A stretch of DNA of 64,000 bases, from positions 1-64,000 of the IMG/VR virus record IMGVR_UViG_3300036792_000176; one strand, 5' to 3'. This DNA comes from a virus. Shown here one piece after another: positions 16,401-48,868 of the stretch (within the stretch, counting starts at the first letter, position 1; every line of letters begins with the position of its first letter). The notes beneath the pieces are model-generated. The model was not told where the DNA came from. It ran no database searches and was given only the letters and a program-made list of their open reading frames with translations. The position numbers and the translations under genes are program-made.

Positions 16401-16430
16401 AGTATAGCGCGCGGGAACGGGCTTCCGCTA
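16401..16430 (-). promoter_or_regulatory. TAGC-class promoter (leftward)
   Basis: TAGCGG-N18-TATACT-N6-ATG. Confidence 0.75.
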
Positions 16431-16582
16431 CCCTCTCGCGTATATGCAGTCTCCTGGATTCTGTTTCCAGGGTGTCCGCTATATACGGGATTCCGTGTGT
16501 ATCTGTTTGTATCCATCTTATATCTCCGAGGTATAATAAGAGGGTAAAGTCCGGGTCCATCAAACAAGGAGCAAGGGTCACA

Positions 16583-16846
16583 ATGGAAATTCCTGACAAG
16601 TTCTATCGGCAGTCCGATCCGACGCCGCCTAAGCAGCCGCTTCGCATCTTCGGGGACCACCCCAACTCGTTTGCGATAACGTGGCTGTTCTACGCATTCG
16701 TGATCTTCTGGCCATTCATCTTCTTCCACGGAGTTGCACTGGTTATAGTGCAGACTTCGTGGATCGTGTTCATCCTGGCTGTGCTCATCGTGCGCCACAT
16801 CGTGCTGACGATCAGGGACGGTGCGTGGACCAAGTTATCCATGTAG
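16583..16846 (+). CDS. Small two-TM membrane protein
   Basis: AAGGAG RBS, TATAAT upstream (~16533), hydrophobic helices. Confidence 0.65.
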   Translation: MEIPDKFYRQSDPTPPKQPLRIFGDHPNSFAITWLFYAFVIFWPFIFFHGVALVIVQTSWIVFILAVLIVRHIVLTIRDGAWTKLSM

Positions 16847-16874
16847 CCAATTTCGCCTCCCGCCGCTGGCGGTA

Positions 16875-16904
16875 AAAGCCCACTCGTGGAAACGGGTGGG
16901 CTTT
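16875..16904. terminator. Intrinsic terminator (possibly bidirectional)
   Basis: AAAGCCCACTCGT-GGAA-ACGGGTGGGCTTT. Confidence 0.75.
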
Positions 16905-17034
16905 GCCATTGGCTCGCATCGCCATTTTCGTCGCTGATGTTACTGGCGGCAGGAATGCAGTTTGCTGGAAAGTGATTTTTACATCTCCAGTAGAAATAAG
17001 TATCCAGGAGCGCTAGCGCTGTTCTTCCAGACAA

Positions 17035-17225
17035 TATGGTAACCATAATACTTGTATACCATGATGTTAACCACGGTTAACGACTGGTCAGGGTTAGGAC
17101 AGATCCCTTGGTAGCCATAATGTTAACCAACCTACCGAGTCTGTGTCAGCGATACCTTGGTAGCCATAATGGTAGCGAAACTACCGAGTCTCTGTCGGGC
17201 CGAACACTTGGTAGCCAAGGTAACC
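17035..17225. repeat. ~50-bp periodic direct repeats
   Basis: CTTGGTAGCCA at 17107, 17156 and 17207; first two units also share TAAT and CTACCGAGTCT.TGTC; degenerate TGGTAACCATAAT at ~17037. Confidence 0.85.
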
Positions 17226-17297
17226 AGGAGCAACTGGTGACTACGTAAAGTTACAGTGTAACGTTACCATTTCGTTACCCAAAAAGGCCGGTAAGGG

Positions 17298-17326
17298 TAG
17301 CGCCTAGGGGCCCTAGGCGCTATACT
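17298..17326 (+). promoter_or_regulatory. TAGC-class promoter, probable major early promoter
   Basis: TAGCGC-N17-TATACT; shares CCTAGGCGCTATACTTA with the promoter at 21157. Confidence 0.8.
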
Positions 17327-17498
17327 TAAGCTATAGCCCGCCGGTAAGGGGGCGGTAGGGCCCCCGGGCCCGGGGCCCCGCGCCTAGCGCGCGGGGGCCC
17401 GGTCCGGCCCGGGGGCCCGGGGGTAAAGGCCGGTAGGCGCGTACCCCTAGCTAAAAATGAAAGGCCCGGGTACTGCCGGGTAGGGCTTGGTTGCCTAC

Positions 17499-17516
17499 GC
17501 TACTTGAGAACTGAAT
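17499..17516 (+). promoter_or_regulatory. boxA-like antitermination element
   Basis: GCTACTTGAGAACTGAAT resembles the actinobacterial rrn boxA (TTGAGAACTCAA-type). Confidence 0.55.
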
Positions 17517-17519
17517 TTA

Positions 17520-17735
17520 TGACGCCCGTGCTGACGGGCCGGAGTACGGAACCGCGTAGGGAGAGGACTCTACGTAGGCCGTTAATGCCGGGGGACGCCT
17601 AGGTAAACGACTAGGACCCTACCTTTGTATAACCGTAAGTGGGAGTGTTGTGGCGCTCCCGCCCCTACGGTTACCGTGAGGCTAGGCCGATGAATATGGT
17701 AACGGGCTAGCCTACGCGGGTACCGTACGGTACGA
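17520..17735 (+). ncRNA. Highly structured 5' leader / candidate ncRNA
   Basis: Serial stems GCCCGT/ACGGGC, CGTAGGG/CTCTACG, CCTAG/CTAGG, TAACCGTA/TACGGTTA, AGGCTAG/CTAGCCT; no credible ORF. Confidence 0.45.
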
Positions 17736-17760
17736 AAAACCCTTCAAAAGGAGAATTACA

Positions 17761-18156: not shown

Positions 18157-18234
18157 CTACCGGCGAGTCTGCCTGATCGCCGCCCCCGCCATATGGCGGA
18201 CGGGGGCGGCGGTCGGGTAGGTTACCACGGTAGG

Positions 18235-18263
18235 TAGCCTAAGTACAAAATGTAGGGTATGCT
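18235..18263 (+). promoter_or_regulatory. TAGC-class promoter
   Basis: TAGCCT-N17-TATGCT. Confidence 0.6.
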
Positions 18264-18300
18264 TGAACTGTAAGCTCGCCCCCGTCCGAAAGGTAAGAAA

Positions 18301-18507
18301 ATGTACTCCTCGCTTAACTCCGCCGCCGCTGACGCCGCTGAGATTGCGGTTGACGCCGTGATCGTGTCGGCTGACGCCGAGGGCCTGCTCTCCGACTCCG
18401 CTGTCGTCGGGTACCGCGCCTGGTACGCGGTGTACCTCGCTACCGGTAAGTTCGGCGTTGCTAACGCCGCTAGCTACTGGGCTCCCCGCTACTCCGCTGC
18501 TGAGTAG
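18301..18507 (+). CDS. Small early protein (no His/Gln; CA-free gene)
   Basis: GAAAGG RBS; ORF bounded by repeated intergenic elements. Confidence 0.75.
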   Translation: MYSSLNSAAADAAEIAVDAVIVSADAEGLLSDSAVVGYRAWYAVYLATGKFGVANAASYWAPRYSAAE

Positions 18508-18599
18508 CCTCCCGGCTAACCTGCCTGATCTCCCCGCCCCGTGCGGGGAGGTTGGGTAGGCTACCACGGTAGGTAGCTGTGAAATGAAAGGGGCCCACA

Positions 18600-18854
18600 A
18601 TGCCCAGTACCGAGATGAGCCCCATCGACGTAGCCGAGCAGGTTGGCGGCGACGTGATGACGGCGAGCTACAATGAGGGTCTCGACTGCCAGTCCGACCT
18701 GGTCGGGCTGCGGATCTACGCCGCCATCTACCTGGCCCTGTTCAAGTACGGCCAGTTCGTGGCGGAGTACTACGCCGAGCAGTACTCGGTGAACGACGAG
18801 CCCTACTTCACTGACGCCCATGAGGGTGACAGCGCGTTCGGCCCCCTGAGCTAG
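18600..18854 (+). CDS. Small acidic early protein
   Basis: GAAAGGGG RBS; between repeat elements. Confidence 0.7.
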   Translation: MPSTEMSPIDVAEQVGGDVMTASYNEGLDCQSDLVGLRIYAAIYLALFKYGQFVAEYYAEQYSVNDEPYFTDAHEGDSAFGPLS

Positions 18855-18930
18855 CGGCTAGCTTCCCCGGTGTCCGGGCTACCCGGACACTCGGGGTGGC
18901 TACCACGGTAGGTAGTCAGGAGAGGAAGAA

Positions 18931-19056
18931 ATGCCAAGTGACATGACTGAACTGACCCTCAGGCAGAAGGCCAGGGCGCTGGTCGCCTTCGGCCTGGCCG
19001 ACGACATCAACGAGGCATACGCCCAGCTGGAGGACATGGGCGAGGACGACGACTAG
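18931..19056 (+). CDS. 41-aa early peptide (MPSDMTELTLRQKARALVAFGLADDINEAYAQLEDMGEDDD)
   Basis: Not in ORF track; GGAGAGG RBS; between repeat elements. Confidence 0.7.
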   Translation: MPSDMTELTLRQKARALVAFGLADDINEAYAQLEDMGEDDD

Positions 19057-19138
19057 CGGCCTGCTTTCCCGGGGCTCGGAGCAATCCGAGCCCACGGGAT
19101 GGCTACCCCGATGGTAGTCAGGAGATGGAGAGTAAGAC

Positions 19139-19474
19139 ATGAAGTGCGGATACTGCTCTGATCAAGCGGTGGCCATCCTGACGGCAACGTACATCCGGCA
19201 CCCCAAGCCCACGCCCGTCTGCCAGACGGACCTGGACCGGCTCAACAAGCCCGACAACTTCGACAAGATGCCGACGGTCACGGGCATCGAGCGGGTCTGG
19301 TGCGAGAACCCCGCGCACTCCTCCGATCCGCACTACCCGACCATGACCGGTCGCTACACGGACGCGGACTCCGCTGCCAAGGACCCCAACGAGTGCCACT
19401 GGCCGCACCTGGTGCCGCCGGTCGCCGACCTCCCGGACAGGCCGGAGGGGTACTACCACAGCCCGCTTGGCTAG
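19139..19474 (+). CDS. Small Cys/His-rich early protein
   Basis: CxxC..., GGAG RBS. Confidence 0.7.
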   Translation: MKCGYCSDQAVAILTATYIRHPKPTPVCQTDLDRLNKPDNFDKMPTVTGIERVWCENPAHSSDPHYPTMTGRYTDADSAAKDPNECHWPHLVPPVADLPDRPEGYYHSPLG

Positions 19475-19547
19475 CGGTCCAGCTTCGGTCCCGCCCCTCT
19501 GGGGCGGTGGCCGTGGCTACCCCGATGGTAGTCAAGGAGAGGAAGAG

Positions 19548-19763
19548 ATGAACACCGAGAAGATCGAGCTCCGCATGACTGCCCTGGAGGCTGACTCGGT
19601 AGCTTACGTCATCATGAGTGCCCTCGGTCGAGTCACGATGCTCGACAGGGAGCGCGTCGACGCCACGGCGGCTGCGAACGAGCTGTTCAGGCAGCTGGGG
19701 TACGGGCACCACACCACACTTCACGGCGAGCGCGTCGAGGACAAGGTCAAGGTCAAGTCCTAG
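19548..19763 (+). CDS. Small early protein
   Basis: GGAGAGG RBS before ATG 19548. Confidence 0.7.
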   Translation: MNTEKIELRMTALEADSVAYVIMSALGRVTMLDRERVDATAAANELFRQLGYGHHTTLHGERVEDKVKVKS

Positions 19764-19848
19764 CGGCGAGCTGCCCTGGCCACCCGCCCCGTGCGGGTGA
19801 CCGGGGGAGCTACCACGGTAGGTAGCTGAGCAGGAAGGACAACCCCTT

Positions 19849-20360
19849 ATGCGAGTCCAGACCAAGACCGGCCTGCGTGGGACGGTCATCGACACGAGGG
19901 ATGGCGGGGACAAGAGCCTCGTCCAGTTCGACAACGGAACCACCTGGTGGTGGTTCACCGACTGCCTGGAGGCATTCCACGCCTTCGGCATGTGCTGCGT
20001 CTGCCGTGTGCGCACGGCCATGCGCGGCAGCGGGTACTGCCCTACATGTAGGAGGATCTGATGCAGGTCAAGTTCGAGAACCTCACCCCCACACAGGTCG
20101 CCATGCATATGGCGAACAACTGGAGCGACCCCATGGCAACCGACAGATTCTTCGTCATGGACAAGCTCCCGCTCTGGCCGGGCGATATGGCCCAGATCGG
20201 CCCGTTCACAGTCATCTGCGAGGACACCGAGCTCGACGATGCCAGGTTCACGGTGACCTGGGATGCCGAGCCGTGTATCCACCCCGGCGTGTTCGCCAAC
20301 TCCCAGCCCACAACTCACTGCTGGGCGTGCGACACCGACGTCCCCCGAGAGCTGCTGTAG
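19849..20360 (+). CDS. Two coupled small early genes (19849-20061, 20061-20360)
   Basis: TGATG coupling; Cys motifs. Confidence 0.65.
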
Positions 20361-20453
20361 GACAACCCTCCTGATACCCGAGCCGACCTTCCCTGCGGCT
20401 CGGGTAGCGGGAAGGCTGCCCATCAGGGTAGCTGTGTCGAGAGAGGACACACA

Positions 20454-21131: not shown

Positions 21132-21156
21132 GCGCCTAACGGCCAGCGGATAGGGG

Positions 21157-21185
21157 TAGCGGTGCGCCTACCTAGGCGCTATACT
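21157..21185 (+). promoter_or_regulatory. TAGC-class promoter
   Basis: TAGCGG-N17-TATACT. Confidence 0.8.
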
Positions 21186-21223
21186 TAGGGTAGGCGTACC
21201 GCCCCCGGGAAAGGACAGCAAGA

Positions 21224-23207: not shown

Positions 23208-23308
23208 AACGTGGAGGCGGGCGGACGACGCGAGCGCTTATTCGGTGTCGGACGCCCGTCCTTACGTTCCCAGCTACGTAACGATCATGCACAGAAATGA
23301 GGTGTATC

Positions 23309-23569: not shown

Positions 23570-23662
23570 CCGCAGGTCAGGCAGTGTGCATGCCATGGTT
23601 GCAGGGTCGTTAGCGCCGGTAATTACCTAAGCTAATTAGCGGTGGAAATATACCCTAGGGGG

Positions 23663-23691
23663 TACCCTAACGGCCCTGCAGCCGGTATACT
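23663..23691 (+). promoter_or_regulatory. Promoter (variant -35)
   Basis: TACCCT-N17-TATACT in a CA/TG-poor island. Confidence 0.6.
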
Positions 23692-24705: not shown

Positions 24706-24989
24706 GCGGATCGTATAACCGCAGGTCAGAGGCACACTGCAGGGATCGTCGGCACTCCGTCGGCGGTCCCTGCAGCACGTGTGCACCCGCGGAATCCTTT
24801 AGCGCCGCTAATTACCTAGGCTAACGATCTCGACGACTGCTGACTCCGATGCATCTGGCTCTGAGATCAGCCCGTCCTCTGCTCCACTCGGGACTCCAGT
24901 GCACGGAATCGTTAGCCGAGGTAATTATCCGCCCTAACGAATGCCTGGGCCAGGTTTGTACCTCCCACGAGGTAAGGTATACTAGTTTC

Positions 24990-25310: not shown

Positions 25311-25342
25311 TGAGAATTTCTTCTGCGTGAGTTAGAAGGTAA

Positions 25343-25768: not shown

Positions 25769-25798
25769 TAGCCATACCGGGTAGCACTACGGTATACT
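25769..25798 (+). promoter_or_regulatory. TAGC-class promoter
   Basis: TAGCCA-N18-TATACT. Confidence 0.7.
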
Positions 25799-26932: not shown

Positions 26933-26967
26933 CCGGCCAGCTCCACAGCCCATCACCCGCAAGGCAC

Positions 26968-27007: not shown

Positions 27008-27272
27008 CGGCGTTCAGACGGACGCCAAAACCCGATATCTCACAGACTGCTGAATGGTGGAGCTCCGAAATAAGGCCGATTAGCCGTCCGCCCCTACCGG
27101 TACCCGGTAGGCTAGCCGCGCGGTCCGTACGGCGGAGCTCCCAAAGGATTCAGGGGTATCCACGGGGACCGCCCCGGTAAGCTACCCTACCCGGTACCCT
27201 AGCTTTACCACTCCGGCTGTAGTACCCTACCCCTTAGACCCCCGCCCCTACCCGAGAATAGGGCAGCAGGTT

Positions 27273-29712: not shown

Positions 29713-29748
29713 GCGGGTACCTAGCCGCGCCTAGCCCTAGCCGTACCC

Positions 29749-29777
29749 TAGCCCTAGGGCCGTGCATACGGTAGGAT
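29749..29777 (+). promoter_or_regulatory. TAGC-class promoter, leaderless
   Basis: TAGCCC-N17-TAGGAT-N6-ATG(29784). Confidence 0.8.
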
Positions 29778-31628: not shown

Positions 31629-32693
31629 GTGGGACGGTCGGGTAACAGAGAACGACAAGCCGAACGAGATAGTGCTGAGGATCGACGGATAGGAGAAGCT
31701 GTGCCAACACCGACTGGCCTGCCAAAGGTGGGCGAGGTCTGGGAGAGCACCAGGAAACTCCCAGGTCAGAAGACAAACGTCCAGCGGTTCGTCGTGCTAG
31801 AGCGCGGGCGTGGCGACTACTGGTCTATGCGCGTGTACATTCCTGGGAAGGGCGTTAGCCTATGGGTCGATCCGGCTTACCAGATGAAGATGGGCGAGCT
31901 GAAGTACATCGGCCCGGCGAATGCTGAGATCAAGAAGAAGCTGGGTCTGAAATGAGAGTGATCCTCGACTTCTACTTCGACGACCTGGAGCAGCGCTGCC
32001 TGAATCCGAAGTGCGACTTCAGAGTCGGGCCGTACAGCGAGGAGTGGCGCGGTGGCTGCCCCAACTACCTGGCCGAGGAGCGGAGGACATGCAACAGTGC
32101 GCTCGGATTCTTCCGGGCGTTCGGGAACGAGGCACAGCGCAGCGTTCAGGTGAGGCGGGAAGACGCCCGCCTCCCTGGATCGAACTGCAGGCCAGACGTT
32201 ATCTACGGGGAGAGGTTATGGGGTACAACAACGAGGCGATGCACACTGCGATGTCCATTCTCGAGGCCATCGCCATTCCGGAGCTGCCGGCCATGCTCAA
32301 GAAGATGGTGCTGGATGGCACAGCCGAGGTCATCTGGGACCCGCATGTTAGCGGTGTCGTCGGCTTCATCTACCCAGGCACCAACAGGGCCATGTGCGTG
32401 GTGTACGTTAACCGCAATGACTTCGAGCTTGAGGACGAGTTCGAGAACAAGGTAATGCGGTCCGGTACCGACGTCACAATCAAGGAGGATGGCTCGTGAA
32501 TGAAGGATGCAATCACAGCAAGATAGGGTCGATCGCGTCCATCGAGGAGGGCAGGCACTGTGCATTCATGACGTGCCCGAACTACCGCGAGAAGTGCCCG
32601 TTGCACGCTATCGCGAAGACAGGGGAGGAATGCAACCTGACGATGCGGACCGACGTTACCCTAGCCGACCCGCCGGTACCGCCGGTACCCTAG
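31629..32693 (+). CDS. Small hypothetical genes (incl. 31629-31955, 32218-32499, 32496-32693)
   Basis: Coupled ORFs; starts uncertain. Confidence 0.45.
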
Positions 32694-32718
32694 CCGTACC
32701 GCGTACGCCCCGGTACCC

Positions 32719-32748
32719 TAGCCCTAGCGGTATGCATACGGGTACGAT
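32719..32748 (+). promoter_or_regulatory. TAGC-class promoter
   Basis: TAGCCC-N18-TACGAT; near-copy of the 29749 promoter (GTACCCTAGCCCTAG..TGCATACGG..GATATACCTA). Confidence 0.8.
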
Positions 32749-38420: not shown

Positions 38421-38428
38421 GTAAACCC

Positions 38429-38458
38429 TAGCCTGCAGTCGCCGAGATAGGGTAGGAT
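38429..38458 (+). promoter_or_regulatory. TAGC-class promoter, leaderless
   Basis: TAGCCT-N18-TAGGAT-N6-ATG(38465). Confidence 0.75.
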
Positions 38459-38662
38459 AGGGGTATGACGTACCGTACCGGGGCGACCCCCGAATACTGG
38501 TGCGACCCCGGTAGGCCGAGAACAGAGGAATACCCATGAACTGGCCGTATGAGGAGTGCGAGGTTTGCGGAGGCGCTCTGATGTTCAACGGCGATGACTG
38601 GATGCACATCAACTCCGGGAAAGACGACACCCTTCACATCCCTTCACCAGACAGGAAGACGA

Positions 38663-39805: not shown

Positions 39806-40805
39806 TCTGGACAGCCGCAATTTCCATGCGGATGAGATGGACCTGGACGCGGCACTCAACAAGGTGCGCAAGCTCATCGAGCGGTCGAGCTACCATCAGG
39901 ATCACGGCGAGCAGGATAGGGCTAACGACCTGCTCACACAGGCCGATGCCCTCATGTTCAAGTACTCCATCGACAAGGCGATGGCAGAAGCGGCGAAGCC
40001 CTCTGCCGAGCAGGCAAAGCCCAAGAGGATCAAGGTCGAGATGTGCGGCCCTGGCGACCCGCTGGCATTCGAGATCTCATGCCTGGTCAACGTGGTAGCC
40101 AGGCACTGCCGTTGCATGGCCATCTGGCTCCCCTCAGACTACAGGCCACATGTCTCGGAGATCTTCGGGTACGAGTCAGACGTACGCTACGCCGAGATGC
40201 TTTACACCCAGCTCCTCATGCACATGACTTCGGTCCTCTTCCCCAAGATGGACCCAAGCAAGACGCTCGGCGAGAACTGTTACACCCTTCACAACCAGGG
40301 ACTCAACTGGCTGGACATGGCCGAGCTTGATGGCTGGAAGAAGCTTCCGGCTGCTGACTATCCGGGCGTCAAGGTTCCGTTCACCAAGGACTTTGATTTC
40401 AGCGTATCGCCGTCCACGAAGGTGGGCGGCATCTACAAGCGCGCGTACTACGCTGAGTGCAAGCGCCTTGGCGAGCAGCCTAAGATCGTGCCCGCCTCGG
40501 CAAGCAGGCAGGCGCGTACCGACGCATTCCGAAAGAGTGTGGCCAAGGGGTACGTCAATCGTATCGCAGAGCGTCTCTTCAGGGTCGAGAAGGCCCAGAA
40601 CAAGGTCGGCACAGCACTGGTCCTGGCAGGCCAGAAGGACACGATCGAGGCTATGTTCGCTGAGGCATATCCGCACAGCAAGTCTTCGGTGGACGAGTTC
40701 AAGGCCAAGAGCAACCCCGAGGCGATGCTCAGGGGTATGAGGCGCGCGGACGAGGCCGACCTGAGCGTCGGCGTCGGTGGCGGCAGGGCGAGGGCCATCG
40801 GGTGA
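39798..40805 (+). CDS. DUF2786-domain protein
   Basis: L.KVRKL......A..L...A..LM.KY.ID, .FGYESD, FR.S...GY...I..RL. Confidence 0.75.
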   Translation: MVSLDSRNFHADEMDLDAALNKVRKLIERSSYHQDHGEQDRANDLLTQADALMFKYSIDKAMAEAAKPSAEQAKPKRIKVEMCGPGDPLAFEISCLVNVVARHCRCMAIWLPSDYRPHVSEIFGYESDVRYAEMLYTQLLMHMTSVLFPKMDPSKTLGENCYTLHNQGLNWLDMAELDGWKKLPAADYPGVKVPFTKDFDFSVSPSTKVGGIYKRAYYAECKRLGEQPKIVPASASRQARTDAFRKSVAKGYVNRIAERLFRVEKAQNKVGTALVLAGQKDTIEAMFAEAYPHSKSSVDEFKAKSNPEAMLRGMRRADEADLSVGVGGGRARAIG

Positions 40806-41692
40806 CAGTAGAAGAGGTGAGGCGTGTCCAGAAGGTACTCGGCCTCCTAGACACGCACTTGGTATACGTGGATGCGGAAGAGGGATTCTGGATGGCGCAC
40901 ACTCAGCAGGAGCGCGAGAGTGTGCCAGATCTGCATGAGTGCCGCATCCACAGATACCTATGCCGCGAGCCTATCGTGGTTACCGGCTGGTACATAATCG
41001 AGGAAGACGGATCGATCGGAAGGATTGACATGAGAATGGAATCGCCGTGATACGCGAGGGATTCGAGCGCCTGTACGCCACATGGGTGTATAACTTCGAC
41101 AGATGGGCGTGGAAGCGGCGCTGGCGCATGATCAAGATGCGCCACAGGGAGTTCACCGATAGGTTCGAGCACTGGTACGAGACTGGCAACTGGTGGTACG
41201 ACCGTGGGTGAATTCATAGTGGCCATGGCGAAGGAGATTGCATTCATCGTCATGGCCACGACGGTGATCCTTGCCGTCCAGTACCTGATAGTACGATACA
41301 TCCTGAACGGGATCATGGACGTGGTAGACCACACGCACCCCCTGGCTCTATGGCGTCTGCGTCTTCTGTTCTTCCGGCTCAGCGGTCGATGCCGTGAGTG
41401 TCATCTCAGGAACGGCATCCACAGGTTCGGGTGCACCAGAAGACAAGGCGAGGAGTGACTATGTATTTCTGGCCATGGCTTGCAGCACTTCTGTCATCGC
41501 TAGTTGCATGCTTCGTTTTCCTGGCGGCTGCGATGCTGTCGAACCCTGGGTCTAAGAGGGAGAAGTTCATGGCTTACATGTGCGTGAGCTCTTTCCTTGT
41601 ATTCCTGCTGCTGGTGTACATGTCCGCATCTATACACGGGGTAACCTCCAAGTAGACTGCGCGGCCGGTAGGAGGGTTTCTAGCCGAAACGG

Positions 41693-41721
41693 TAGCGGGC
41701 TCCGGCCCGGTACGGTACGCT
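41693..41721 (+). promoter_or_regulatory. TAGC-class promoter
   Basis: TAGCGG-N17-TACGCT. Confidence 0.75.
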
Positions 41722-41754
41722 TTACCTAGCGCCCGAATAGAGTAGGAGAGCCGA

Positions 41755-42528
41755 GTGTTTACCTGCGGCAACTGTCACGAACAGCACGAAACCGCCGACG
41801 AAGGCAGGCGTTGTTACGCATCGGCCCCAGCGCGCGAGATGACGCCCGAGCAGCTGGAATTCATCAACACCCTCCTCGTGGAACGTGACATGACTCCGCT
41901 TCCGCTGGTTCCGAGGCCGAACCTGACGCTGTCGGAGGCTACGGCAGAGATCAAACGCCTGCTGCTGATCAAGGTGCGTGTTGCCGATACCGGCATACCA
42001 GAAGGCTACTACGCAGTCGCATCCATCACCGGGAACAATGACTTTGACTTCTTCCGGATCGATCGCCCAGACAAGGGCAAGTGGGCTGGCTACACATTCG
42101 TCAAGCGCGTCATCGGAGGCCACCCCGACGTAAATGTTAGCAAGGTAGAGGCTCGCAAGGCGATCGCGGCAATACGGCAGGCCGGGATTGATGAGTCCGG
42201 CGAGCTGTACGGCGAGAAGATGAAAGCCTGCTACAAGTGCAACACATCCCTAACCAAACACGCGAGCACCGTGCTTAAGGTCGGCCGCACCTGCGCCGGC
42301 AGAGTCGGCAAGGGCGCGCTCTGGGATTCCATCCAGGCAGAGTTCGAGAAGGAGGGTAAGAATGGCGACGAAGATAGTGCTGCTAGCGGTAGAGGTAGAA
42401 GACCCGACCCCCGCGGAGCAGATCCAGAGCGCAAACCCCGGGCTGTCGGAAGAGACGATCCAGATGTACCAAAGAGTCGCCGACCTTCTCGGCCCCGTGG
42501 GCGAGCCCGCGCTGCGAGAGCTGTGTAA
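41755..42528 (+). CDS. Zn-finger (DUF6011-like) protein
   Basis: PEGYYAV, F.R.DRP..G.W.G, YG.....C..C...LT...S....G..CA. Confidence 0.65.
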   Translation: MFTCGNCHEQHETADEGRRCYASAPAREMTPEQLEFINTLLVERDMTPLPLVPRPNLTLSEATAEIKRLLLIKVRVADTGIPEGYYAVASITGNNDFDFFRIDRPDKGKWAGYTFVKRVIGGHPDVNVSKVEARKAIAAIRQAGIDESGELYGEKMKACYKCNTSLTKHASTVLKVGRTCAGRVGKGALWDSIQAEFEKEGKNGDEDSAASGRGRRPDPRGADPERKPRAVGRDDPDVPKSRRPSRPRGRARAARAV

Positions 42529-42996
42529 CAGTATGTGCAGCGAAAGCAGGAACGAAGGGTACTACAACGGGTAGCATCCGTCGATAACGAGGAGAACGGC
42601 ATGAACGACAAAAGCCAGTACGTCGGCAACACGATGGGGGCGTCCAACTCTCAGGGTCCCTCGACGCCGAAGTGGTCGAAGGACTGGCAGTTTCAGCTGG
42701 CCAAGCAGTTTGAAGGAACCCGCTGGGACATCTAGCGTCCCCTGAATGTCCTGCTCGTGCGAAAGCCAACGAGTCCCGATGTAGTGGGTACTGCCAAGGC
42801 GAGCAGGGCCTTGAGGGGATGATCCCTCTGGGAGGAGGTGAATGTAATGGAAACTAGCGTCGTCGAGAAGAACAACGTCACGATGCAGCAAACGGTGCAC
42901 GGCACGTTCCAGCCCAAGGGCTGGGAGCTGGCCCTGGGCTGGGAGCTGATCCGCAACATGCAGCCGTAGTACCCGATCCCGAGTAGTCCTGTTGTG

Positions 42997-43027
42997 GACC
43001 GGCCGGAGCTTCCCCCTCCGGCCGGTC
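42997..43027 (+). terminator. Hairpin terminator
   Basis: GACCGGCCGGAG-N7-CTCCGGCCGGTC. Confidence 0.7.
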
Positions 43028-43956
43028 AGTTAATGGAGGAATAATAATGCTGCTTGAGCAGCGTATCGCTTACTACAACAAGCAGACCGGCCGAGATGAT
43101 TGCAGGCCAGGTCCGCAGGCAAGGAGGGCAAGGCACAAGAGGAAAGGAGGCAGGGCTCACAGCCATGATGGCAACCGCTGCCCGATCTGCCAGCCTCTTC
43201 CGCAGGTCAAGGTGCAGATGCAGAACCAAGAGACGGGAGATCCCAGGAATTGGGTTCAGAACTTGCTGTTGTCGCAGCGGCCGCGATAGTATTTGGCGGC
43301 GGCAGCATCTGGATCGGATGTCTATGGTTCAGGAACCATCTTCACGAGAGGTGGCTACGGAAAGAGCAGAACTCTTACGAGAGACAGAGAGTAACGGGAG
43401 ACAGGAAACAGGAATGGCTACAATAACCAATCGAGAGGACGTCGACAAGCTTATCGACAATGCCGGGGTGTACCCTGGCGACGAGGACAGTTTCACCGGT
43501 CCTGTCGTAAGGATCGTCGAGTACAAGAACCAAGCCGGAGAGACCATATTCGGAGTGGTGTACGAGATCGAGGCTGCCAAGAACATGCTGGACCGGTACG
43601 ATCACCCTTCGCAGTACATTCGTAACCCGAAGGTGATCTGGCGACACGCGGAATGGATCTCATGAGTCGCACATTCGTAATCTCTCTCGACGTGAGCGAG
43701 GGGACGGCTCTGGGGTTTCTACGGGCAACCCAGAAAAGGAAATCCCTCCGGGCCAAGACGGACGACGGCACGGCATTCGACGTGCCGGTCCTGTTCATCT
43801 ACCCGACCGACGATACCGGTCACTGCAGTCAGCATACGGAACAAGAGAAATAACCCCTCAATCCTACCGTAACAGTAGGGTTTCCGGCAAAACACCCCGC
43901 CCCCGTTTTCAGGGAATGGGCACCCCCAGAAAAATCTCCGAGGGAGATAGATTCAC

Positions 43957-44808
43957 ATGACAGCTAGTACCCAGCGAATGATCCTGGTCTCGAACATCCA
44001 CCCCAACCCGAACAACCCTCGTAAAGAGGCCGGGAACGTCACCGAGCTCGCCCGCCAGATCAAGGACCGGGTCGACCAGGGTCTGCCCGCTCTCGTCCAG
44101 CCCATCATGGTGATCCCGGCACCACAGTACGGCGGAGACCACGTCATGATCGAGGACGGGTATCGCCGCTGGGTGGCCGGTAAGAGTGTGGTGCGCGCTC
44201 TTGAGTGCACAGTCAACTACCCGCGTCCGGACGAGGACCTTACCCGGAGGGCTCTGTCAATCGGCCTGGTCACGGCCCTCCACAAGATGGATCTCACCCC
44301 GCTCGAGAAGGCGGATGCGTTCGGTCGTCTGCACAAAGAATTCGGCATGACGCAGGATGCCATCGGGAAACAGTTCGGTATCACCGGTAGCTCTGTCGGC
44401 TACTACATGGCTCTCCTCGATCTGTCCGATAAGTCCAGGGGTGACGTCGCATCCGGGAAGCTGTCGGCGGATCGAGCGATCTCTGCCGTCAGAGAGCACA
44501 GGTCCAAGAATCGCAAGAAGAGCGGCAAGAAGCCTATCGATGTCGGCTGGGAGCCGGATCACTTCAGCGATAGCCATTACCTGGCGAAGAACGCCAAGGT
44601 AATGTGCGACGCTCGCGGGCACGGTAGCCGTCGGCGCTTCGCGGGTGCCTGTCACGCCTGCTGGGAGACGGTCATCCGTCGTGACGAGAATCAGGTCACT
44701 AAGGTGGACTTCCTTACCGCCGGATCGAAGGAGCTCCAGTTCATGCCACCCGCCCCTCTCGAGAACGGCGTCGCTGGCGTGAACGGAACTACGGGCAATC
44801 ACAAGTGA
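43957..44808 (+). CDS. ParB/RepB/Spo0J-like protein
   Basis: I.PNP.NPR, L.QPI.V, IEDG.RRW.A, DL.PLE.A.AF..L, HTH MTQDAIGKQFG.T.S.V. Confidence 0.85.
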   Translation: MTASTQRMILVSNIHPNPNNPRKEAGNVTELARQIKDRVDQGLPALVQPIMVIPAPQYGGDHVMIEDGYRRWVAGKSVVRALECTVNYPRPDEDLTRRALSIGLVTALHKMDLTPLEKADAFGRLHKEFGMTQDAIGKQFGITGSSVGYYMALLDLSDKSRGDVASGKLSADRAISAVREHRSKNRKKSGKKPIDVGWEPDHFSDSHYLAKNAKVMCDARGHGSRRRFAGACHACWETVIRRDENQVTKVDFLTAGSKELQFMPPAPLENGVAGVNGTTGNHK

Positions 44809-44980
44809 AGCGACTTCGGTACAAGTACTCCCCTGTATACCGCCGGATATACCTATTGTACGGCGAGAAGAATGGGCATGCCGTACTCAAGGGGAAGCGA
44901 GCATGGCGCAAGGTTAACGGCGTTGGATTTAACACCAGGAAGTTCGGTAATCGCATCATCCTATTCCGGCGCTACTAGGC

Positions 44981-45009
44981 TAGCGCGCTAGGCCGGTATG
45001 GAGTAGAAT
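44981..45009 (+). promoter_or_regulatory. TAGC-class promoter, leaderless
   Basis: TAGCGC-N17-TAGAAT-N7-ATG(45017). Confidence 0.8.
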
Positions 45010-45016
45010 AAGGGGT

Positions 45017-46480
45017 ATGGACGTTAATGGCACGCCGCCGGTAATCATCCGGCACGGGATGGGGTCCTGCAGCAGGTGTGGGGCCCCATTCAAGGCTGGC
45101 GACAGGCGCGAGTCTGACCCCTGCTGCTCCGCTCCTGACTGCGAGGCGATCAATGACGTCTCGCACTACGGGTGCCTCCCTCCGGCGCTCAAGAAAATTG
45201 CCGACGAAGAAGCCATGTACACAAACTGGGGCGATCATGCCTAGGTATCACTGGGCCAACGTTATAGACGAAGAGTCCAAGAAGGTACGCATCCTCTCCG
45301 AGCAGTGCAAGACATGCATATTCCTGCCCGGCGACAAGATGCTACTCGGGTCACGCCGCATGCACGAAGTGGTCCAGAAAAACCTGGAATCCAACTCCCT
45401 CCTGACATGTCACGCAACCCTTCCGGGCATGCCGGATGACGAGAATTACCAGCCAGCAGTTTGCAGAGGATTCTGGAATCTGCACGGGCTCAAGACAGCT
45501 GCCGGCGCTCTCGCGAAGTCAGTTATCGGAATCATATTCGTAAACCCTCCAGAGAACGGTAAGAAAGATGACGATGCTGGCGCTGCCAATTCCGAGGTAC
45601 GGCGTCCTGCTGTCGAGCGGCAATCTGATGAAGGATCTACGGGGCAAGGTAGCCTGGGGCACTGACTTCAAGGGCATATCGTCTGCCAGGATAGTTCTCG
45701 GAGGCAATGTGGTGCTGCTTCGCTACTGCCTATGGTGCGACGACTACCACCAGGACAGCCAGGATGGCTGCGTTAAGTTCCCGGCGCTGATCGGAGACGA
45801 CATATGAGCAACAGCCCAGACTTCCCGGTCATAAAGGGCCAGGTATGGCGCTGGAAGGGTATGAAGTGCCTGGTACAGAGGGTGGCCATTGACGGCTCCT
45901 GGGCCGACCTCCGGGTGTTCCCGCTGGACTATCCAAGGTCAAAGTACTGGCCGAAGAGGATGGACATTCCATTCCCGGACGAGTTTGTATTCGAACGAGA
46001 GAGCAAGGGGGCCATGCACACATTCCTGGTTACAGTAAAGACGCCAAAAGTACACAGTCACGATCCGTCCAACAAGAAGGTTGGTAAGTGCCCATTCTCC
46101 GATGAGTGCACCGATAGCACAGGCCAGCATCACACCGGCGTTCTCCGGGCCACTGACGACGATATATCTCTCATAAAGAATGGCTCAGGATCCATCAACG
46201 GTGTCGAGTACAGCCACATCACGCGCATAGAGAAGATGCGCCCGTGAAGGCGTCGCTAGACCCGAATGCCCAGAAGCTGATGGATGCCGCCAATGAGGCG
46301 AGGAACATCTCTGATCTACTCAGGATAGCTTCCAGGACGATGGAATTCGACTCTGGCATGAGTCCCACCAAGGAGCATATAGACGCCGCGTACGCATCAC
46401 TGTACAGCATCAGGAAGAGGCTGAGCAAGCTGGTTGCAAATATGGGCGTAGGGATCCCGGGGAGAACGAGTGCGAGCTGA
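45017..46480 (+). CDS. Small hypothetical genes (45017-45244, 45237-45665, 45568-45807, 45804-46247, 46244-46480)
   Basis: Coupled ORFs, several Cys-rich. Confidence 0.55.
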
Positions 46481-48449
46481 CATCACCACGGACGGTAGGC
46501 ATGTCATCGCGCATATCCCGTACGCTCGCGGAGAGGGGACAGAGTGGGCCAAGAAGGTACCCGGCGCTAAACCGGTGTACGAGAAGGTAGATGGTCTGGA
46601 CAAGGATAAATTCAAGCACTGGTCTTATCCTCTCACCATGGAGACGTGCCGCACCTTCCGGCGCATATTCGGATCAGAGCTTACCGTTCGTAATGCCCTG
46701 TCAGATTGGGCTCGTGCCGCCATAGCTGCAGGCGAGCAGCTTGAGCAGCTACGCGACGGAGCTAGCGCCGCGCTCCCTCGTGTTGAGTCCGAGTCGCCAT
46801 TCCTTCATGCCGCAATGATGGACAGGCCGTACCAGCCTGCCGGCACGGCGTTCATGGTTCTGGCCGGACAGTGCATCCTCGGTGATGAGCCGGGTCTTGG
46901 CAAGACGCTACAGACACTCGGCGCTCTGATCGAGTCTGACAGCAAGGACATCCTCGTCGGCTGCCCGCGCACAGCTACCCGTAACGTATGGGAGCGAGAG
47001 ACGCGGCGCTGGGCACCTAACATCCAGGTGTTCGTTGCCCAGGGTACCCGGGCAGAGCGCGAGGCGGCTATGGACGGCTACGCCGCGTTCCGCAAGAACT
47101 GGCCTGACATACAGTGCATGCTCGTTATCAACAACGAGATGATCAGGGCAAAGCGTTACCAGCAGTGCAAGCTCACCAAGGACTGGAAGAAAGATGGCAA
47201 CCCCTACGCCGCCTGGTCAAAGATAAAGAGGCCATACGGATCCTGCAAGAAAGACCATCCGCACCGCACTGTTGCTGAATATGAGTGGCCGTTCCTATTC
47301 AAGCGTAAATGGGACGCTATCGTCATCGACGAGTCTCACAATCTTCTTGCGTCTACATATAATGTTGGCAGTAAGAGCATCACCCAGGGACGTTACGGTG
47401 CAATGAAGTTGCGCAGACGTCTACGGCCGGAAGGGCTGGCTCTAGCCCTGAGCGGCACGCCATTCCGATCGAAGCTGACGAAGGGCTGGGGTACACTAAA
47501 CTGGTGCCGCCCAGATGTATTCAGATCATACTGGAACTTTGCCGGACATCACTTCGGCGTAGAGCAGGGCAAATACGGACAGGTCGTAGCCGGAGGAGCC
47601 AAGGTACCCAAGCCGGTAGATCAGGAAGCATTCGATGCAATGCTACGACCATACTACCTAGCCCGGACAAAGGAGCTAGCAGCTCCTGACCTGCCACCAG
47701 TGCTGTTCGTCGGCAATCCTCCTGAAAGTGATCCAGAGGGAATGCACGGCATATGGCTTGACATGGACCCGAAGCAGAAGAAGTCGTACCAGAGCATGGC
47801 CGCTCTTGCCGAGGCTAGGCTGAGAGGTGGGCTACTCACGGCTAACGGCACCCTCGCGGAGATAACGCGCCTTAGGCAGTTCGCTACGGCGCACGGCAGG
47901 ATGGAAGGGAACACATTCGTCCCAGACCTGCCCTCCAATAAGGTTGACTGGATTCTTGAGTTCCTGATGGAGCGGGAGGGACACGAGGAGAAAGTCCTTA
48001 TCGCATCCAGCTTCACTCAGATCGTTCACCTTGTGTCTGAATGCATAGAGAAGGAATTCAAGGGAGAGGTGCTACGCCTTACCGGAGCGACAACAGACCG
48101 CGGTCGTGTGGAGATCAAGGATAGGTTCAATGATCCAGATGATGATGCGCGGGTGCTTGTAGTTCAGTCCAAGACGGGCGGAGAAGCCATCACCCTGGAC
48201 GGATGCTGCAGCGACCTTGTGATCATAGACCTACCCTGGACTTCTGACGAGGAGAATCAGCTTGTCGCTCGTATCCATAGGGTGAGCAGAGTACACCAGG
48301 TGATGGTGCATAGACTGTTCAGCCTTGGCTCTGTCGACGGCTGGATGGCAGCATACTCTGACGAGCAGAGGGCTGTCATCGAGTCGAACAAGCCAAAGGC
48401 AAGAAAGAGGACAGCCCTGGAAGCCATAACATGGCACAAAAATTCGTAA
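46470..48449 (+). CDS. SNF2-family (SF2) helicase
   Basis: GDEPGLGKT, IVIDESH, LSGTP, GGEAITL, Q..ARIHR. Confidence 0.92.
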   Translation: MRADITTDGRHVIAHIPYARGEGTEWAKKVPGAKPVYEKVDGLDKDKFKHWSYPLTMETCRTFRRIFGSELTVRNALSDWARAAIAAGEQLEQLRDGASAALPRVESESPFLHAAMMDRPYQPAGTAFMVLAGQCILGDEPGLGKTLQTLGALIESDSKDILVGCPRTATRNVWERETRRWAPNIQVFVAQGTRAEREAAMDGYAAFRKNWPDIQCMLVINNEMIRAKRYQQCKLTKDWKKDGNPYAAWSKIKRPYGSCKKDHPHRTVAEYEWPFLFKRKWDAIVIDESHNLLASTYNVGSKSITQGRYGAMKLRRRLRPEGLALALSGTPFRSKLTKGWGTLNWCRPDVFRSYWNFAGHHFGVEQGKYGQVVAGGAKVPKPVDQEAFDAMLRPYYLARTKELAAPDLPPVLFVGNPPESDPEGMHGIWLDMDPKQKKSYQSMAALAEARLRGGLLTANGTLAEITRLRQFATAHGRMEGNTFVPDLPSNKVDWILEFLMEREGHEEKVLIASSFTQIVHLVSECIEKEFKGEVLRLTGATTDRGRVEIKDRFNDPDDDARVLVVQSKTGGEAITLDGCCSDLVIIDLPWTSDEENQLVARIHRVSRVHQVMVHRLFSLGSVDGWMAAYSDEQRAVIESNKPKARKRTALEAITWHKNS

Positions 48450-48839
48450 GGCAGGTAAGGTACCTTGGGCCTAGTCTGACATTCGTCTCTAGCTCGTATA
48501 ATTTCAGTTCATGGTACTGCGACGCATTGAGGGTGGACGGCTTGCATATAAAAACAGAGTTGATGACAGGCGAGGACACCCTGACCTACCTCGCCAAGAA
48601 TTATGGCGAGCCAGAGCTAGCGGGGCTGGGCACAGGCGATCCGGCCGCGACCGCGCGGCGTAATCTGGAGATTGCATGCCAGTACGGCATATCTGGACAG
48701 CCTGTTGCTGGCGGCCATTACCACGTTCTTTGCTACCGTCCTAAGCGCGGAAAGAACAAAGTTATGTACCGGGTAGAGGATCACACCTCGAGATCAGATA
48801 GAATCGGAAAAGAAAATCTAGCTGATCCCGTGATTAAGG

Positions 48840-48868
48840 TAGCGCCCCCGACTAAGAGCCGGTATAGT
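48840..48868 (+). promoter_or_regulatory. TAGC-class promoter inside an open frame
   Basis: TAGCGC-N17-TATAGT. Confidence 0.75.

What the first reader, a model, noticed from the sequence alone, without database searches (positions are those of the whole stretch)
16401..48868. Promoter family with TAGC(S)N -35 box, a TG-free version of the canonical TTG -35
Seen: TAGCSN-N17/18-TANNNT at 16430(-), 17298, 18235, 21157, 25769, 29749, 32719, 38429, 41693, 44981 and 48840 (11 copies), plus variants at 23663 and 27200. Four place an ATG 6-7 nt after the -10 box (16394, 29784, 38465, 45017), i.e. leaderless mRNAs. Known: primary-sigma -35 boxes begin TTG and actinobacterial -10 boxes are TANNNT. Inference: the consistent TTG-to-TAG change removes the TG step from the -35 box, as the modification hypothesis predicts; alternatively a phage activator or sigma reads TAGC.
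Basis: partly seen in the sequence, partly recalled or inferred. Interest (0 to 1): 0.8.

Follow-up and report, generated by a model that had tools for sequence, protein, structure and literature searches.

The report
Phage promoters with TAGC -35 box
An uncultured soil phage, probably of actinobacteria, and its closest relatives start many early genes from ordinary-looking bacterial promoters in which the usual TTG-type upstream box is replaced by TAGC, and what reads that box is not yet known.

Summary
All 11 sites and both variants are at the stated coordinates. The pattern occurs 17 times in the window against 3.3 expected and is about 12-fold denser in intergenic than in coding DNA. Across five related phage genomes, TAGCSN boxes sit 17 or 18 bp before a TANNNT far more often than at other spacings; TTGNNN shows no such peak. 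Features that were not imposed are also conserved: GG before the -10, T at its sixth position, an AGGGGT stretch, and an A seven bases on that is often a start codon. Orthologous promoters keep GGTAGCG and GGTA...T while their spacers differ.

I read these as host sigma-A-type promoters of one phage clade with a non-canonical -35 box. No phage sigma, WhiB or RNA polymerase was detected, and 411 sampled bacterial genomes (406 actinobacterial, five of other phyla) show no excess of the motif.

The TG-avoidance/modification idea is not supported. TA is enriched, and TC, GA and TT fall as well as TG and CA. TTG-type boxes and TG-containing conserved words also exist. Earlier notes of this scan (unchecked) describe similar promoter arrays with lineage-specific -35 words in other uncultured actinophages.

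The parts
16401..16430 (-). Promoter TAGCGG-N18-TATACT. The ATG of gene 15849-16394 follows 6 nt after the -10 (leaderless). It heads the leftward gene block.
   Evidence: (PWM 22.3)
17298..17326 (+). Promoter TAGCGC-N17-TATACT inside an 18/18-nt inverted repeat. It heads the rightward block and has a 434-nt GC-rich leader before gene 17761.
   Evidence: (PWM 23.4)
18235..18263 (+). Promoter TAGCCT-N17-TATGCT, 37 nt before gene 18301.
   Evidence: PWM 18.8
21157..21185 (+). Promoter TAGCGG-N17-TATACT, 38 nt before gene 21224.
   Evidence: PWM 24.0
23663..23691 (+). Variant TACCCT-N17-TATACT. Weaker candidate.
   Evidence: PWM 14.1
25769..25798 (+). Promoter TAGCCA-N18-TATACT, 114 nt before gene 25913.
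   Evidence: PWM 20.2
27200..27228 (+). Variant TAGCTT-N17-TACCCT. The weakest candidate, at the PWM threshold.
   Evidence: PWM 12.0
29749..29777 (+). Promoter TAGCCC-N17-TAGGAT with ATG 29784 6 nt on (leaderless). Three more CTAGCC boxes lie just upstream (T at 29722, 29732, 29738). Ortholog in G001 at 49192(-).
   Evidence: (PWM 25.5)
32662..32748 (+). Three tandem boxes, 29 and 28 bp apart (T at 32662, 32691, 32719). Only the last has a good -10 (TACGAT), 56 nt before gene 32805.
38429..38458 (+). Promoter TAGCCT-N18-TAGGAT followed by AGGGGT and ATG. The ATG at 38465 opens a 24-codon ORF coupled (ATGA) to gene 38536. Orthologs lie after the primase gene in G001 and G003.
   Evidence: (PWM 33.1, best in genome)
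41693..41721 (+). Promoter TAGCGG-N17-TACGCT before gene 41839 (or GTG 41755). Orthologs in G001, G003 and G005.
   Evidence: (PWM 26.7)
44981..45009 (+). Promoter TAGCGC-N17-TAGAAT with ATG 45017 7 nt on (leaderless). The box lies in the 12-bp palindrome CTAGCGCGCTAG.
   Evidence: (PWM 26.0)
48840..48868 (+). Promoter TAGCGC-N17-TATAGT, followed by a hairpin, an SD (AAGGAG) and ATG 48920. Orthologs in G001, G003, G005 and G002.
   Evidence: (PWM 23.2)
58162..58191 (+). Candidate TAGCGG-N18-TAAGGT in the 3' end of gene 57356-58225, 100 nt before gene 58292. G001 has a similar site at 20616(-).
   Evidence: PWM 18.4; G001 21.7
56002..56029 (+). Comparison promoter of the canonical type, TTGCAT-N16-TATAAT, before the AAA_24 gene. 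G001 has the same box. G003 and G002 have TAGCGC at this place.
24956..24983 (+). Comparison promoter of the canonical type, TTGTAC-N16-TATACT, with ATG 24990 6 nt on.

Best explanation
These sites are transcription promoters of one clade of uncultured phages, probably used by the host's primary-sigma (sigma-A type) RNA polymerase.

Anatomy:
- a box (G/C)(G/C)(G/C)TAGC(G/C) where the -35 hexamer would be;
- a spacer of 17 or 18 bp with free sequence;
- an sGG-TAnnnT -10 region;
- a G-rich stretch, consensus AGGGGT;
- a start at an A seven bases after the -10. In three or four window sites that A belongs to the start codon, so the mRNA would be leaderless.

Shown: the motif, its spacing, its intergenic and co-oriented placement, and its conservation between phages.

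Inferred:
- The -10 does most of the recognition, as in actinobacteria.
- The TAGC box is read inside the initiation complex, because its distance to the -10 is fixed while the spacer sequence is free.

Who reads the box is open. My estimate is about 0.4 for sigma region 4 itself (TAGCsn is one letter away from a TTGCsn-type -35), about 0.3 for an unrecognised phage or host adaptor that replaces that contact, and about 0.1 for a repressor operator. The confidence given below is for 'real sigma-70-type promoter family with a functional box at the -35 position'.
For: - Excess over chance and over coding DNA.
- Spacing. Of 359 intergenic TAGCSN boxes in five phage genomes, 26 have a TANNNT at spacer 17 and 15 at spacer 18. 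Other spacers from 8 to 30 give 1-13. The 13 at spacer 13 come from a second TA five bases upstream of the -10. TTGNNN gives 11 and 11, with no peak.
- Features not imposed by the search. G at -2 and -1 of the -10 in 34 and 35 of 46 sites. A at the first base after the -10 in 26 of 46. T then A at bases 6-7 after it in 22 and 23 of 46. No T in the three bases before TAGC in 41 or more of 46. T at hexamer position 6 in 29 of 39 intergenic sites when not required, against 16 of 51 in coding DNA.
- A test that ignores the -35. Of 20 called gene starts with TAnnnT 6-7 nt upstream, 8 have TAGC at spacer 17/18, 2 have TAnC, 1 has TTG and 9 have none.
- Leave-one-genome-out matrix, hits at 12 bits or more against the reversed-sequence control: G000 22 v 5, G001 23 v 8, G003 12 v 4, G005 17 v 0, G002 14 v 7. 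All 14 (G000) and 12 (G001) hits at 18 bits or more run with the local genes.
- Orthologous promoters in phages with about 50-60% protein identity keep GGTAGCG and GGTA...T while the spacers differ.
- TTGCAT and TAGCGC occupy the same columns at one orthologous promoter.
- The -10 type and its G-rich 5' extension match published actinobacterial sigma-A promoters: TANNNT at 73% of M. tuberculosis primary starts, often preceded by S-R-N, with no -35 consensus (PMC3898074, passages read); TAnnnT and a weak ttgnca in C. glutamicum (PMC3890552, passages read).
Against: - There are no transcript data. The only run listed for this DNA is its likely source metagenome, so no start site is shown.
- The host is unknown. 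The nearest cultured phages infect Thermobifida and Streptomyces, at only 47-57% identity in terminase and capsid.
- TAGC breaks the best-conserved part (TTG) of the sigma-70 -35.
- Variants keep T, A and C but change the G (TACC, TATC). That is not the conservation pattern expected for sigma region 4.
- By the loose pattern, G001 (16 v 12 control) and G002 (10 v 13) are not enriched. G002 is also weak by the strict pattern (2 v 1).
- The training sites for the matrix were chosen by the pattern itself, and my gene map is crude.
Confidence: 0.72

Rival explanations
1. Redirection of the host polymerase, as in T4 sigma appropriation. An unrecognised phage protein, made very early or carried in the virion, binds the TAGC box and substitutes for the sigma region 4 / -35 contact. 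That would make these promoters phage-specific.
For: - The box is specific to the clade. It is present in G000, G001, G003, G005 and G010. It is absent (0 matches) from four more distant relatives: three proviruses and a 125-kb phage.
- The composite motif is at or below its reversed control in 5 + 401 actinobacterial genomes and in 5 genomes of other phyla. The maximum is 11 per genome, against 10 in the 88-kb phage.
- Actinobacterial promoters need no conserved -35 (PMC3898074), so a conserved box calls for a reader.
- Some promoters carry extra upstream boxes (29722-29749; 32662-32719).
- T4 middle promoters have the same logic: a host -10 plus a phage box at a fixed distance (PMC2988021, passages read).
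- Earlier notes of this scan report lineage-specific -35 words in other actinophages (unchecked).
Against: - No gene was found for such a factor. There is no Sigma70_r2, Sigma70_r4 or WhiB match.
- The only Sigma70_r4_2 signal is 12 bits, below the family cut-off, inside the ParB-like gene.
- 98 early-region and hub proteins gave no activator family in Pfam.
- The first promoters of both divergent blocks are themselves TAGC-type (16430, 17298), so the factor would have to arrive with the DNA.
- The one gene with its own non-TAGC promoter in the hub (16583-16846) encodes a hydrophobic 87-aa protein with no homolog in the relatives.
- The informative part of the box is short, about 5 bp.
Confidence: 0.3
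2. The TAGC box is an operator. The promoters are '-10 only', and a phage repressor binds the box, which overlaps the -35 position, to shut off early transcription. This resembles the stoperators of cluster A mycobacteriophages (recalled, not read here).
For: - Some boxes lie in palindromes: CTAGCGCGCTAG at 44981 and an 18-nt inverted repeat at 17292-17328. TAGCGCTA(CC) occurs in relatives.
- A ParB-type HTH gene lies next to the 44981 palindrome.
- Boxes are enriched in intergenic DNA in both orientations: 3.7 and 2.8 per kb, against 1.1 and 1.9 in coding DNA.
Against: - Most boxes are not palindromic. The right half is weakly conserved (T 17 and A 16 of 46).
- The distance to the -10 is held at 17-18 bp although the spacers are unrelated. 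An operator does not need that.
- The ParB-like gene is missing from the syntenic interval of G005 and was not found in G010, yet both have strong TAGC promoters. Both records are incomplete.
- No repressor-type gene was seen.
Confidence: 0.1
3. Phage DNA carries a modification at TG/CA steps, and promoters have replaced TTG by TAG so that the polymerase meets unmodified DNA.
For: - TG and CA are at 0.35 and 0.20 of expectation in G000 promoter windows.
- Three CA/TG-free stretches of 166-190 bp exist, against a maximum of 89 in 50 shuffles. Two of them hold motif sites: 17298 and 58162.
- A thymidylate-synthase (ThyX) family gene and a methyltransferase are present.
Against: - TG is 1.07 of expectation genome-wide.
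- The depletion is not specific. TC is at 0.28 and TT at 0.47 in G000, and TA is at 3.4. In spacers T is followed by A in 58 of 111 cases.
- In G005, CA is only mildly depleted in whole promoter windows (0.74) and is not depleted in spacers (11 v 7.0).
- TG occurs in conserved promoter parts (TTGCAT, TTGTAC, GTGCATACGG, TATGCT).
- No modification enzyme with a known TG/CA context was identified.
Confidence: 0.06
4. Compositional artefact. Intergenic DNA rich in isolated TA steps produces the pattern by chance.
For: GGTA, CTAG and TANNNT are each about 2-fold enriched in intergenic DNA, and TA is enriched in these regions.
Against: - There is a sharp peak at spacers 17 and 18 only.
- Strict co-orientation with genes.
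- The link to start codons 6-7 nt after the -10.
- Conservation at orthologous places with diverged spacers.
- Reversed-sequence controls of 0 for the strict pattern in four genomes.
Confidence: 0.03

Closest known systems
Sigma-A (primary sigma) promoters of Actinobacteria, including leaderless ones (M. tuberculosis, PMC3898074; C. glutamicum, PMC3890552; passages read in both)
   Same: - TANNNT -10, with a G-rich S-R-N-like extension before it.
- A purine start about 7 nt after the -10.
- Start codon at +1 in some cases.
- A spacer of 16-19 bp to whatever lies at -35.
   Different: The hosts have no -35 consensus, or only a weak ttgnca. Here a TAGC box is strongly conserved at that place. 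The composite motif is not enriched in any of 406 sampled actinobacterial genomes.
T4 middle promoters read by MotA/AsiA (sigma appropriation; Hinton 2010, PMC2988021, passages read)
   Same: A host-type -10 is kept, a phage-specific box replaces the -35 at a fixed distance, and there are many copies in front of replication and nucleotide-metabolism genes.
   Different: - The MotA box is 9-10 bp, centred at -30 and 12 +/- 1 bp from the -10. The TAGC box sits exactly where a -35 hexamer would, 17-18 bp away, and differs from a TTGC-type hexamer by one letter.
- No MotA- or AsiA-like gene was found.
- The first promoters of the genome are already of this type.
Stoperators / repressor operators of cluster A mycobacteriophages (recalled from general knowledge; no paper read here)
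   Same: A short asymmetric word repeated in intergenic DNA across the genome, in one orientation relative to transcription.
   Different: Here each word is tied to a -10 at a fixed spacing, often with a start codon at +1, so each is a promoter. No repressor gene was identified.
KorB (ParB-family) operators of IncP plasmids (recalled: a 13-bp palindrome whose core contains TAGC; no paper read here)
   Same: The core letters are the same, the sites lie at or just upstream of -35 regions, and a ParB-HTH gene is present in this phage.
   Different: Most boxes here are half-sites without the palindrome. The full palindromic core occurs only 3 times in the genome, and none of the 3 is at a promoter. 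The ParB-like gene is missing from two motif-bearing relatives.
Leaderless promoter arrays with lineage-specific -35 words in other uncultured actinophages
   Same: A host-type -10, leaderless starts, and a non-canonical word at -35 that points to an unidentified reader.
   Different: Those arrays are described as near-identical cassettes, with a different long word in each lineage. Here only a 5-bp core is shared, the spacers are unrelated, and the same core holds across a clade down to about 50% protein identity.

Membership tests
Sigma-70-family (primary sigma) -35/-10 promoter | -10 hexamer TANNNT (T-A at positions 1-2, T at 6) | tested here: met
   T at position 6 in 29 of 39 intergenic sites when only TAGCS-N-SGTA was required, against 16 of 51 in coding DNA.
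Sigma-70-family (primary sigma) -35/-10 promoter | Spacer of 17 +/- 1 bp between the two hexamers | tested here: met
   Spacer 17: 26 sites; 18: 15; 16: 3; 19: 7, among 359 intergenic boxes in five genomes.
Sigma-70-family (primary sigma) -35/-10 promoter | -35 hexamer of TTGACA / ttgnca type | tested here: not met
   The box is TAGC(G/C)N. TTGNNN shows no spacing peak. Only two TTG-type promoters (56002, 24956) and one TTTACC-type (13910, minus strand) were seen in G000.
Sigma-70-family (primary sigma) -35/-10 promoter | Transcription starts 6-8 nt after the -10 | not testable with these tools
   No RNA run is listed for this DNA. Indirect support only: A at the seventh base in 23 of 46 sites, and start codons 6-7 nt after the -10.
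Sigma-70-family (primary sigma) -35/-10 promoter | Read by the host primary-sigma holoenzyme | not testable with these tools
   The host is unknown. No phage sigma was detected.
T4-type middle promoter (sigma appropriation) | Host -10 kept, with a phage-specific box in place of the -35 at a fixed distance | tested here: met
   The distance (17-18 bp) differs from that of the MotA box (12 +/- 1; PMC2988021).
T4-type middle promoter (sigma appropriation) | Phage-encoded activator and co-activator (MotA/AsiA-like) | tested here: not met
   No such family among 98 early-region and hub proteins scanned against Pfam. A diverged, unmodelled protein cannot be excluded.
T4-type middle promoter (sigma appropriation) | The factor is made from earlier, host-type promoters | tested here: inconclusive
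   The heads of both gene blocks are TAGC-type (16430, 17298). The one non-TAGC hub promoter drives a membrane-like 87-aa protein that is not conserved in the relatives.
Repressor operator / stoperator | Site independent of promoter geometry, bound by a phage repressor | tested here: not met
   The spacing to the -10 is fixed. No repressor gene was found. The ParB-like candidate is absent from G005 and G010.

The most novel reading that the evidence does not exclude
This phage clade carries an unrecognised protein, possibly delivered with the DNA, that binds the TAGC box and takes over the -35 contact of the host polymerase. That would be a sigma-appropriation-type system in phages of high-GC Gram-positive bacteria, with no sequence relation to MotA/AsiA. 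The unusual 'isolated TA step' composition of the promoter regions would be part of its recognition.
Probability: 0.3. Interest if true: 0.75.

Novelty: new variant of a known kind. Interest (0 to 1): 0.5.

Why it matters
Promoters of uncultured phages are almost never defined. Here a simple rule, (G/C)TAGC(G/C)-N15/16-GGTANNNT, marks transcription units in a whole clade of 60-95-kb soil phages. It corrects gene starts: for example, the gene after the helicase probably begins at 48920, not 48563.

The rule also poses a clear question. Actinobacterial polymerases are thought to need little from the -35 region, yet these phages conserve a non-canonical box there at exact spacing. Either the primary sigma accepts, or in the unknown host prefers, A at the second position, or there is an undiscovered adaptor. 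Both can be tested with a few templates and purified polymerase. The promoters may also be useful as orthogonal parts in actinobacteria.

Tried and rejected
- Megablast of 20 kb against named phages: no match.
- A single-protein search for relatives with the helicase found nothing. An alignment of capsid homologs worked instead.
- Spaced-dyad counting in intergenic DNA was dominated by hairpins and did not isolate the motif.
- Anchoring on every intergenic TAGCS (359 sites, both strands) was too dilute to show the -10.
- The 21-kb loci around capsid genes (80 viral, 44 genomic) are structural modules and were uninformative: 25 hits v 21 control, and 1 v 15.
- G009 is 93% coding with few such promoters, and said nothing about what distant relatives use.
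- Phage sigma, WhiB and T7-type polymerase. Sigma70_r2, Sigma70_r4 and WhiB gave no match. Sigma70_r4_2 gave only a 12-bit sub-threshold match in the ParB-like gene. The RNA_pol search is uninformative because its control rang nowhere.
Both records are incomplete.
- The 229-aa conserved protein (41839) and the 176-aa minus-strand protein (35139) do not look like regulators to me. By eye, one looks like a zinc-ribbon protein and the other like a RuvC-type resolvase. These readings were not tested.
- Host promoters. The composite motif is not enriched in 5 + 401 Actinomycetota genomes or in 5 MAGs of other phyla. The highest density was 9 v 3 control in a 1.5-Mb genome, which is within what 401 trials give by chance. 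Ten of the 401 genomes (G016, G406, G063, G254, G033, G097, G283, G333, G358, G103) and G418 are flagged unpublished. The conclusion does not depend on them, and nothing specific from them is reported.
- No RNA holder listed for window 36001-46000.
- Rfam: only two tRNAs.
- Literature. Searches found no paper on a TAGC -35 box in phages. PMC13722658 (passages read) describes a canonical Streptomyces-phage promoter and has no 'TAGC' in its text. They could hold a prior description.

Full report
WHAT THE WINDOW IS. The window is bases 1-64000 of an 87,997-bp IMG/VR virus record, rated 93% complete, with 58% G+C. Head protease, portal and large terminase lie on the minus strand at 5.5-11 kb. A primase-helicase, a helicase and many small genes lie on the plus strand from about 17.7 kb. 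The nearest named phages by protein are Thermobifida phage P1312 (terminase 57%) and Streptomyces phage Dagobah (terminase 50%, capsid 47%). More distant capsid relatives (60% or less) sit as prophages in Streptomyces, Kitasatospora and other actinomycetes. The host is therefore probably an actinobacterium, but it is not known. A large family of closer relatives (capsid 72-93%) exists only as metagenome contigs. I fetched five of them whole or nearly whole: G001 (94.6 kb), G002 (95.5 kb), G003 (70 kb), G005 (68 kb) and G010 (60 kb). I also fetched two distant relatives, G009 and G007. G000 shares 92 of its 145 crudely called proteins with G001 at a mean of 60% identity, and 38-59 proteins with the others at 49-52%.

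THE OBSERVATION. TAGCSN-N17/18-TANNNT occurs 17 times in the window against 3.29 expected, and 0 of 100 shuffles reach 17. Genome-wide, 14 of 23 matches fall in the 11.6% of the genome that my crude gene map leaves intergenic, an 11.8-fold difference in density. Of the six extra window matches, two are mirror images of palindromic sites (16405+, 17322-). Two are tandem upstream boxes (32662, 32691). One is antisense in the helicase gene (47070-). One lies in a gene's 3' end but resembles a site in G001 (58162). The four ATG claims hold by position. Three are starts of called genes. The fourth opens a 24-codon ORF that ends in ATGA on the next start codon.

IS IT A PROMOTER MOTIF RATHER THAN A COMPOSITIONAL ACCIDENT? 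Five tests say yes.

(1) Spacing. Over five genomes, intergenic TAGCSN boxes are followed by TANNNT at spacer 17 in 26 cases and at spacer 18 in 15. Other spacers give 1-13. The 13 at spacer 13 come from a second TA five bases before the -10. TTGNNN shows 11 and 11, with no peak.

(2) Letters that the search did not require are conserved. GG directly precedes the -10 in 34-35 of 46 sites. The -10 is followed by A-G-G-G-G-T-A, and the last A, at the seventh base, is the expected start. The three bases before TAGC are G or C and almost never T. When T at hexamer position 6 is not required, it is still there in 29 of 39 intergenic sites.

(3) A test blind to the -35. Of 20 called starts with TAnnnT 6-7 nt upstream, 8 have TAGC at exactly spacer 17 or 18, where about 0.1 would be expected. 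Two have TAnC, one has TTG and nine have nothing.

(4) A two-block matrix trained on the other four genomes finds 22, 23, 12, 17 and 14 hits in G000, G001, G003, G005 and G002, against 5, 8, 4, 0 and 7 in reversed sequence. All 14 and 12 strong hits in G000 and G001 run with the local genes.

(5) Orthologous promoters keep GGTAGCG and GGTA...T while their spacers differ. This holds after the helicase, before the 41839 family and after the primase gene.

Results that point the other way: by the loose pattern alone, G001 (16 v 12 in the reversed control) and G002 (10 v 13) are not enriched. G002 stays weak with the strict pattern (2 v 1), while G000, G001, G003 and G005 give 10, 7, 7 and 7 against 0.

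HOW FAR THE MOTIF REACHES. An unbiased count of 4-mers at the -35 position of every TANNNT puts TAGC first in G001, G005 and G010. In G000 it ties at the top (2.5-fold) with TACC and TTTG. In G003 it is sixth of the eight listed. It is not among the top words in G002, G009 or G007. Three proviruses and the 125-kb phage G009, whose capsids are about 60% identical, have no match at all. The motif therefore belongs to one clade.

WHO READS THE BOX? The -10 region is of the actinobacterial sigma-A kind. In M. tuberculosis, TANNNT precedes 73% of primary starts, often behind S-R-N, and no -35 consensus exists (PMC3898074, passages). C. glutamicum has TAnnnT and a weak ttgnca at 16-19 bp (PMC3890552, passages). 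TAGCsn is one letter away from TTGCsn. At the AAA_24 gene, G000 and G001 have TTGCAT-N16-TATAAT where G003 and G002 have TAGCGC-N17. The fixed spacing with free spacer sequence argues that the box is read inside the initiation complex.

I found no phage reader:
- No Sigma70_r2, Sigma70_r4 or WhiB match.
- Only a sub-threshold region-4-like signal, inside a ParB-type HTH gene.
- Nothing relevant among 98 early-region and hub proteins in Pfam.
- The ParB-like gene is missing from two motif-bearing relatives.
- The only hub gene with its own non-TAGC promoter encodes a hydrophobic 87-aa protein that is not conserved.

On the other side, the composite motif is at or below its reversed control in all 406 sampled actinobacterial genomes and in five MAGs of other phyla. 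The 88-kb phage holds 10 copies. So it is not a copy of a common host promoter in the genomes searched. Variants keep T, A and C but change the G, which is unlike sigma region 4's usual preference. I therefore keep two readings close together: direct reading by sigma region 4 (about 0.4) and an unidentified adaptor (about 0.3). An operator function is a minor third (about 0.1).

THE TG IDEA. TG is not rare in the genome (1.07 of expectation). In promoter windows TG and CA are low (0.35 and 0.20 in G000). So are TC (0.28), TT (0.47) and GA (0.53), because TA is 3.4-fold enriched: A and T occur mostly as isolated TA steps between G/C runs. In G005, CA is only mildly depleted in whole promoter windows (0.74) and is not depleted in the spacers (11 seen against 7.0 expected). 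TG also sits in conserved promoter parts. Three CA/TG-free stretches of 166-190 bp are real oddities. They belong to another finding on this genome and do not explain the box.

COMPARISON AND VERDICT. In form these are sigma-70-family promoters that fail one defining feature, the TTG-type -35. In logic they resemble T4 middle promoters (PMC2988021), but they lack any MotA/AsiA-like gene and have the box at true -35 geometry. Earlier unchecked notes of this scan describe similar leaderless promoter arrays with lineage-specific -35 words in other uncultured actinophages. The present case differs in sharing only a 5-bp core across a broad clade. I rate it a new variant of a known kind. The motif is solidly established and its mechanism is unresolved. 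The interest is moderate.

Noticed in passing
window 17280-17458, 58036-58226, 1213-1379; promoter windows in general: A and T in promoter regions occur mostly as isolated TA steps between G/C runs. TA is 2.2- to 3.4-fold enriched in five phages, and TG, CA, TC, GA and TT are all lowered. Three stretches of 166-190 bp have no CA or TG, against a maximum of 89 bp in 50 shuffles.
   Followed up: partly
window 17097-17217: Three direct repeats at 49-51-bp spacing with a CTTGGTAGCCA core lie between the divergent promoters 16430(-) and 17298(+). They could be iterons or a regulator's sites.
   Followed up: no
window 56002-56029, 24956-24983, 13910-13938(-): Three promoters have TTG/TTT-type -35 boxes: TTGCAT-N16-TATAAT, TTGTAC-N16-TATACT (leaderless) and TTTACC-N17-TATACT. 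The first and third are kept in G001. The third precedes the block that leads to the terminase gene, so it may be a separate, possibly late, class.
   Followed up: partly
window 43957-44808: This gene has a ParB-type HTH domain (E 8e-13). It lies directly before the 12-bp palindrome CTAGCGCGCTAG that contains the -35 box of the 44981 promoter. It is present in G001, G002 and G003. It was not found in G005 or G010.
   Followed up: partly
window 48450-48919: The long ORF 48431-49660 probably starts at ATG 48920, behind AAGGAG. The roughly 470 bp before it are then non-coding and hold promoter 48840 and a hairpin. The same layout occurs in G001 and G003.
   Followed up: partly
window 18157-20453: Seven short intergenic spacers in a small-gene array each hold a GC-rich hairpin followed by GCTACC-(ACGGTA or CCGAT)-GGTAGY before the next ribosome-binding site. 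Only the first spacer (18235) has a TAGC-type promoter.
   Followed up: no
window 17327-17760: A 434-nt, very GC-rich, repeat-laden leader lies between promoter 17298 and the first rightward gene. It has no Rfam match.
   Followed up: no
G416 contig C741 (a MAG labelled Planctomycetota, reached through L148): Three forward hits of the strict motif lie within 11 kb of one contig. It is probably a phage contig of this clade binned into the MAG, not evidence about the host.
   Followed up: no
window 52377-52451, 54123-54197: Two tRNA-Met (CAT) genes.
   Followed up: no
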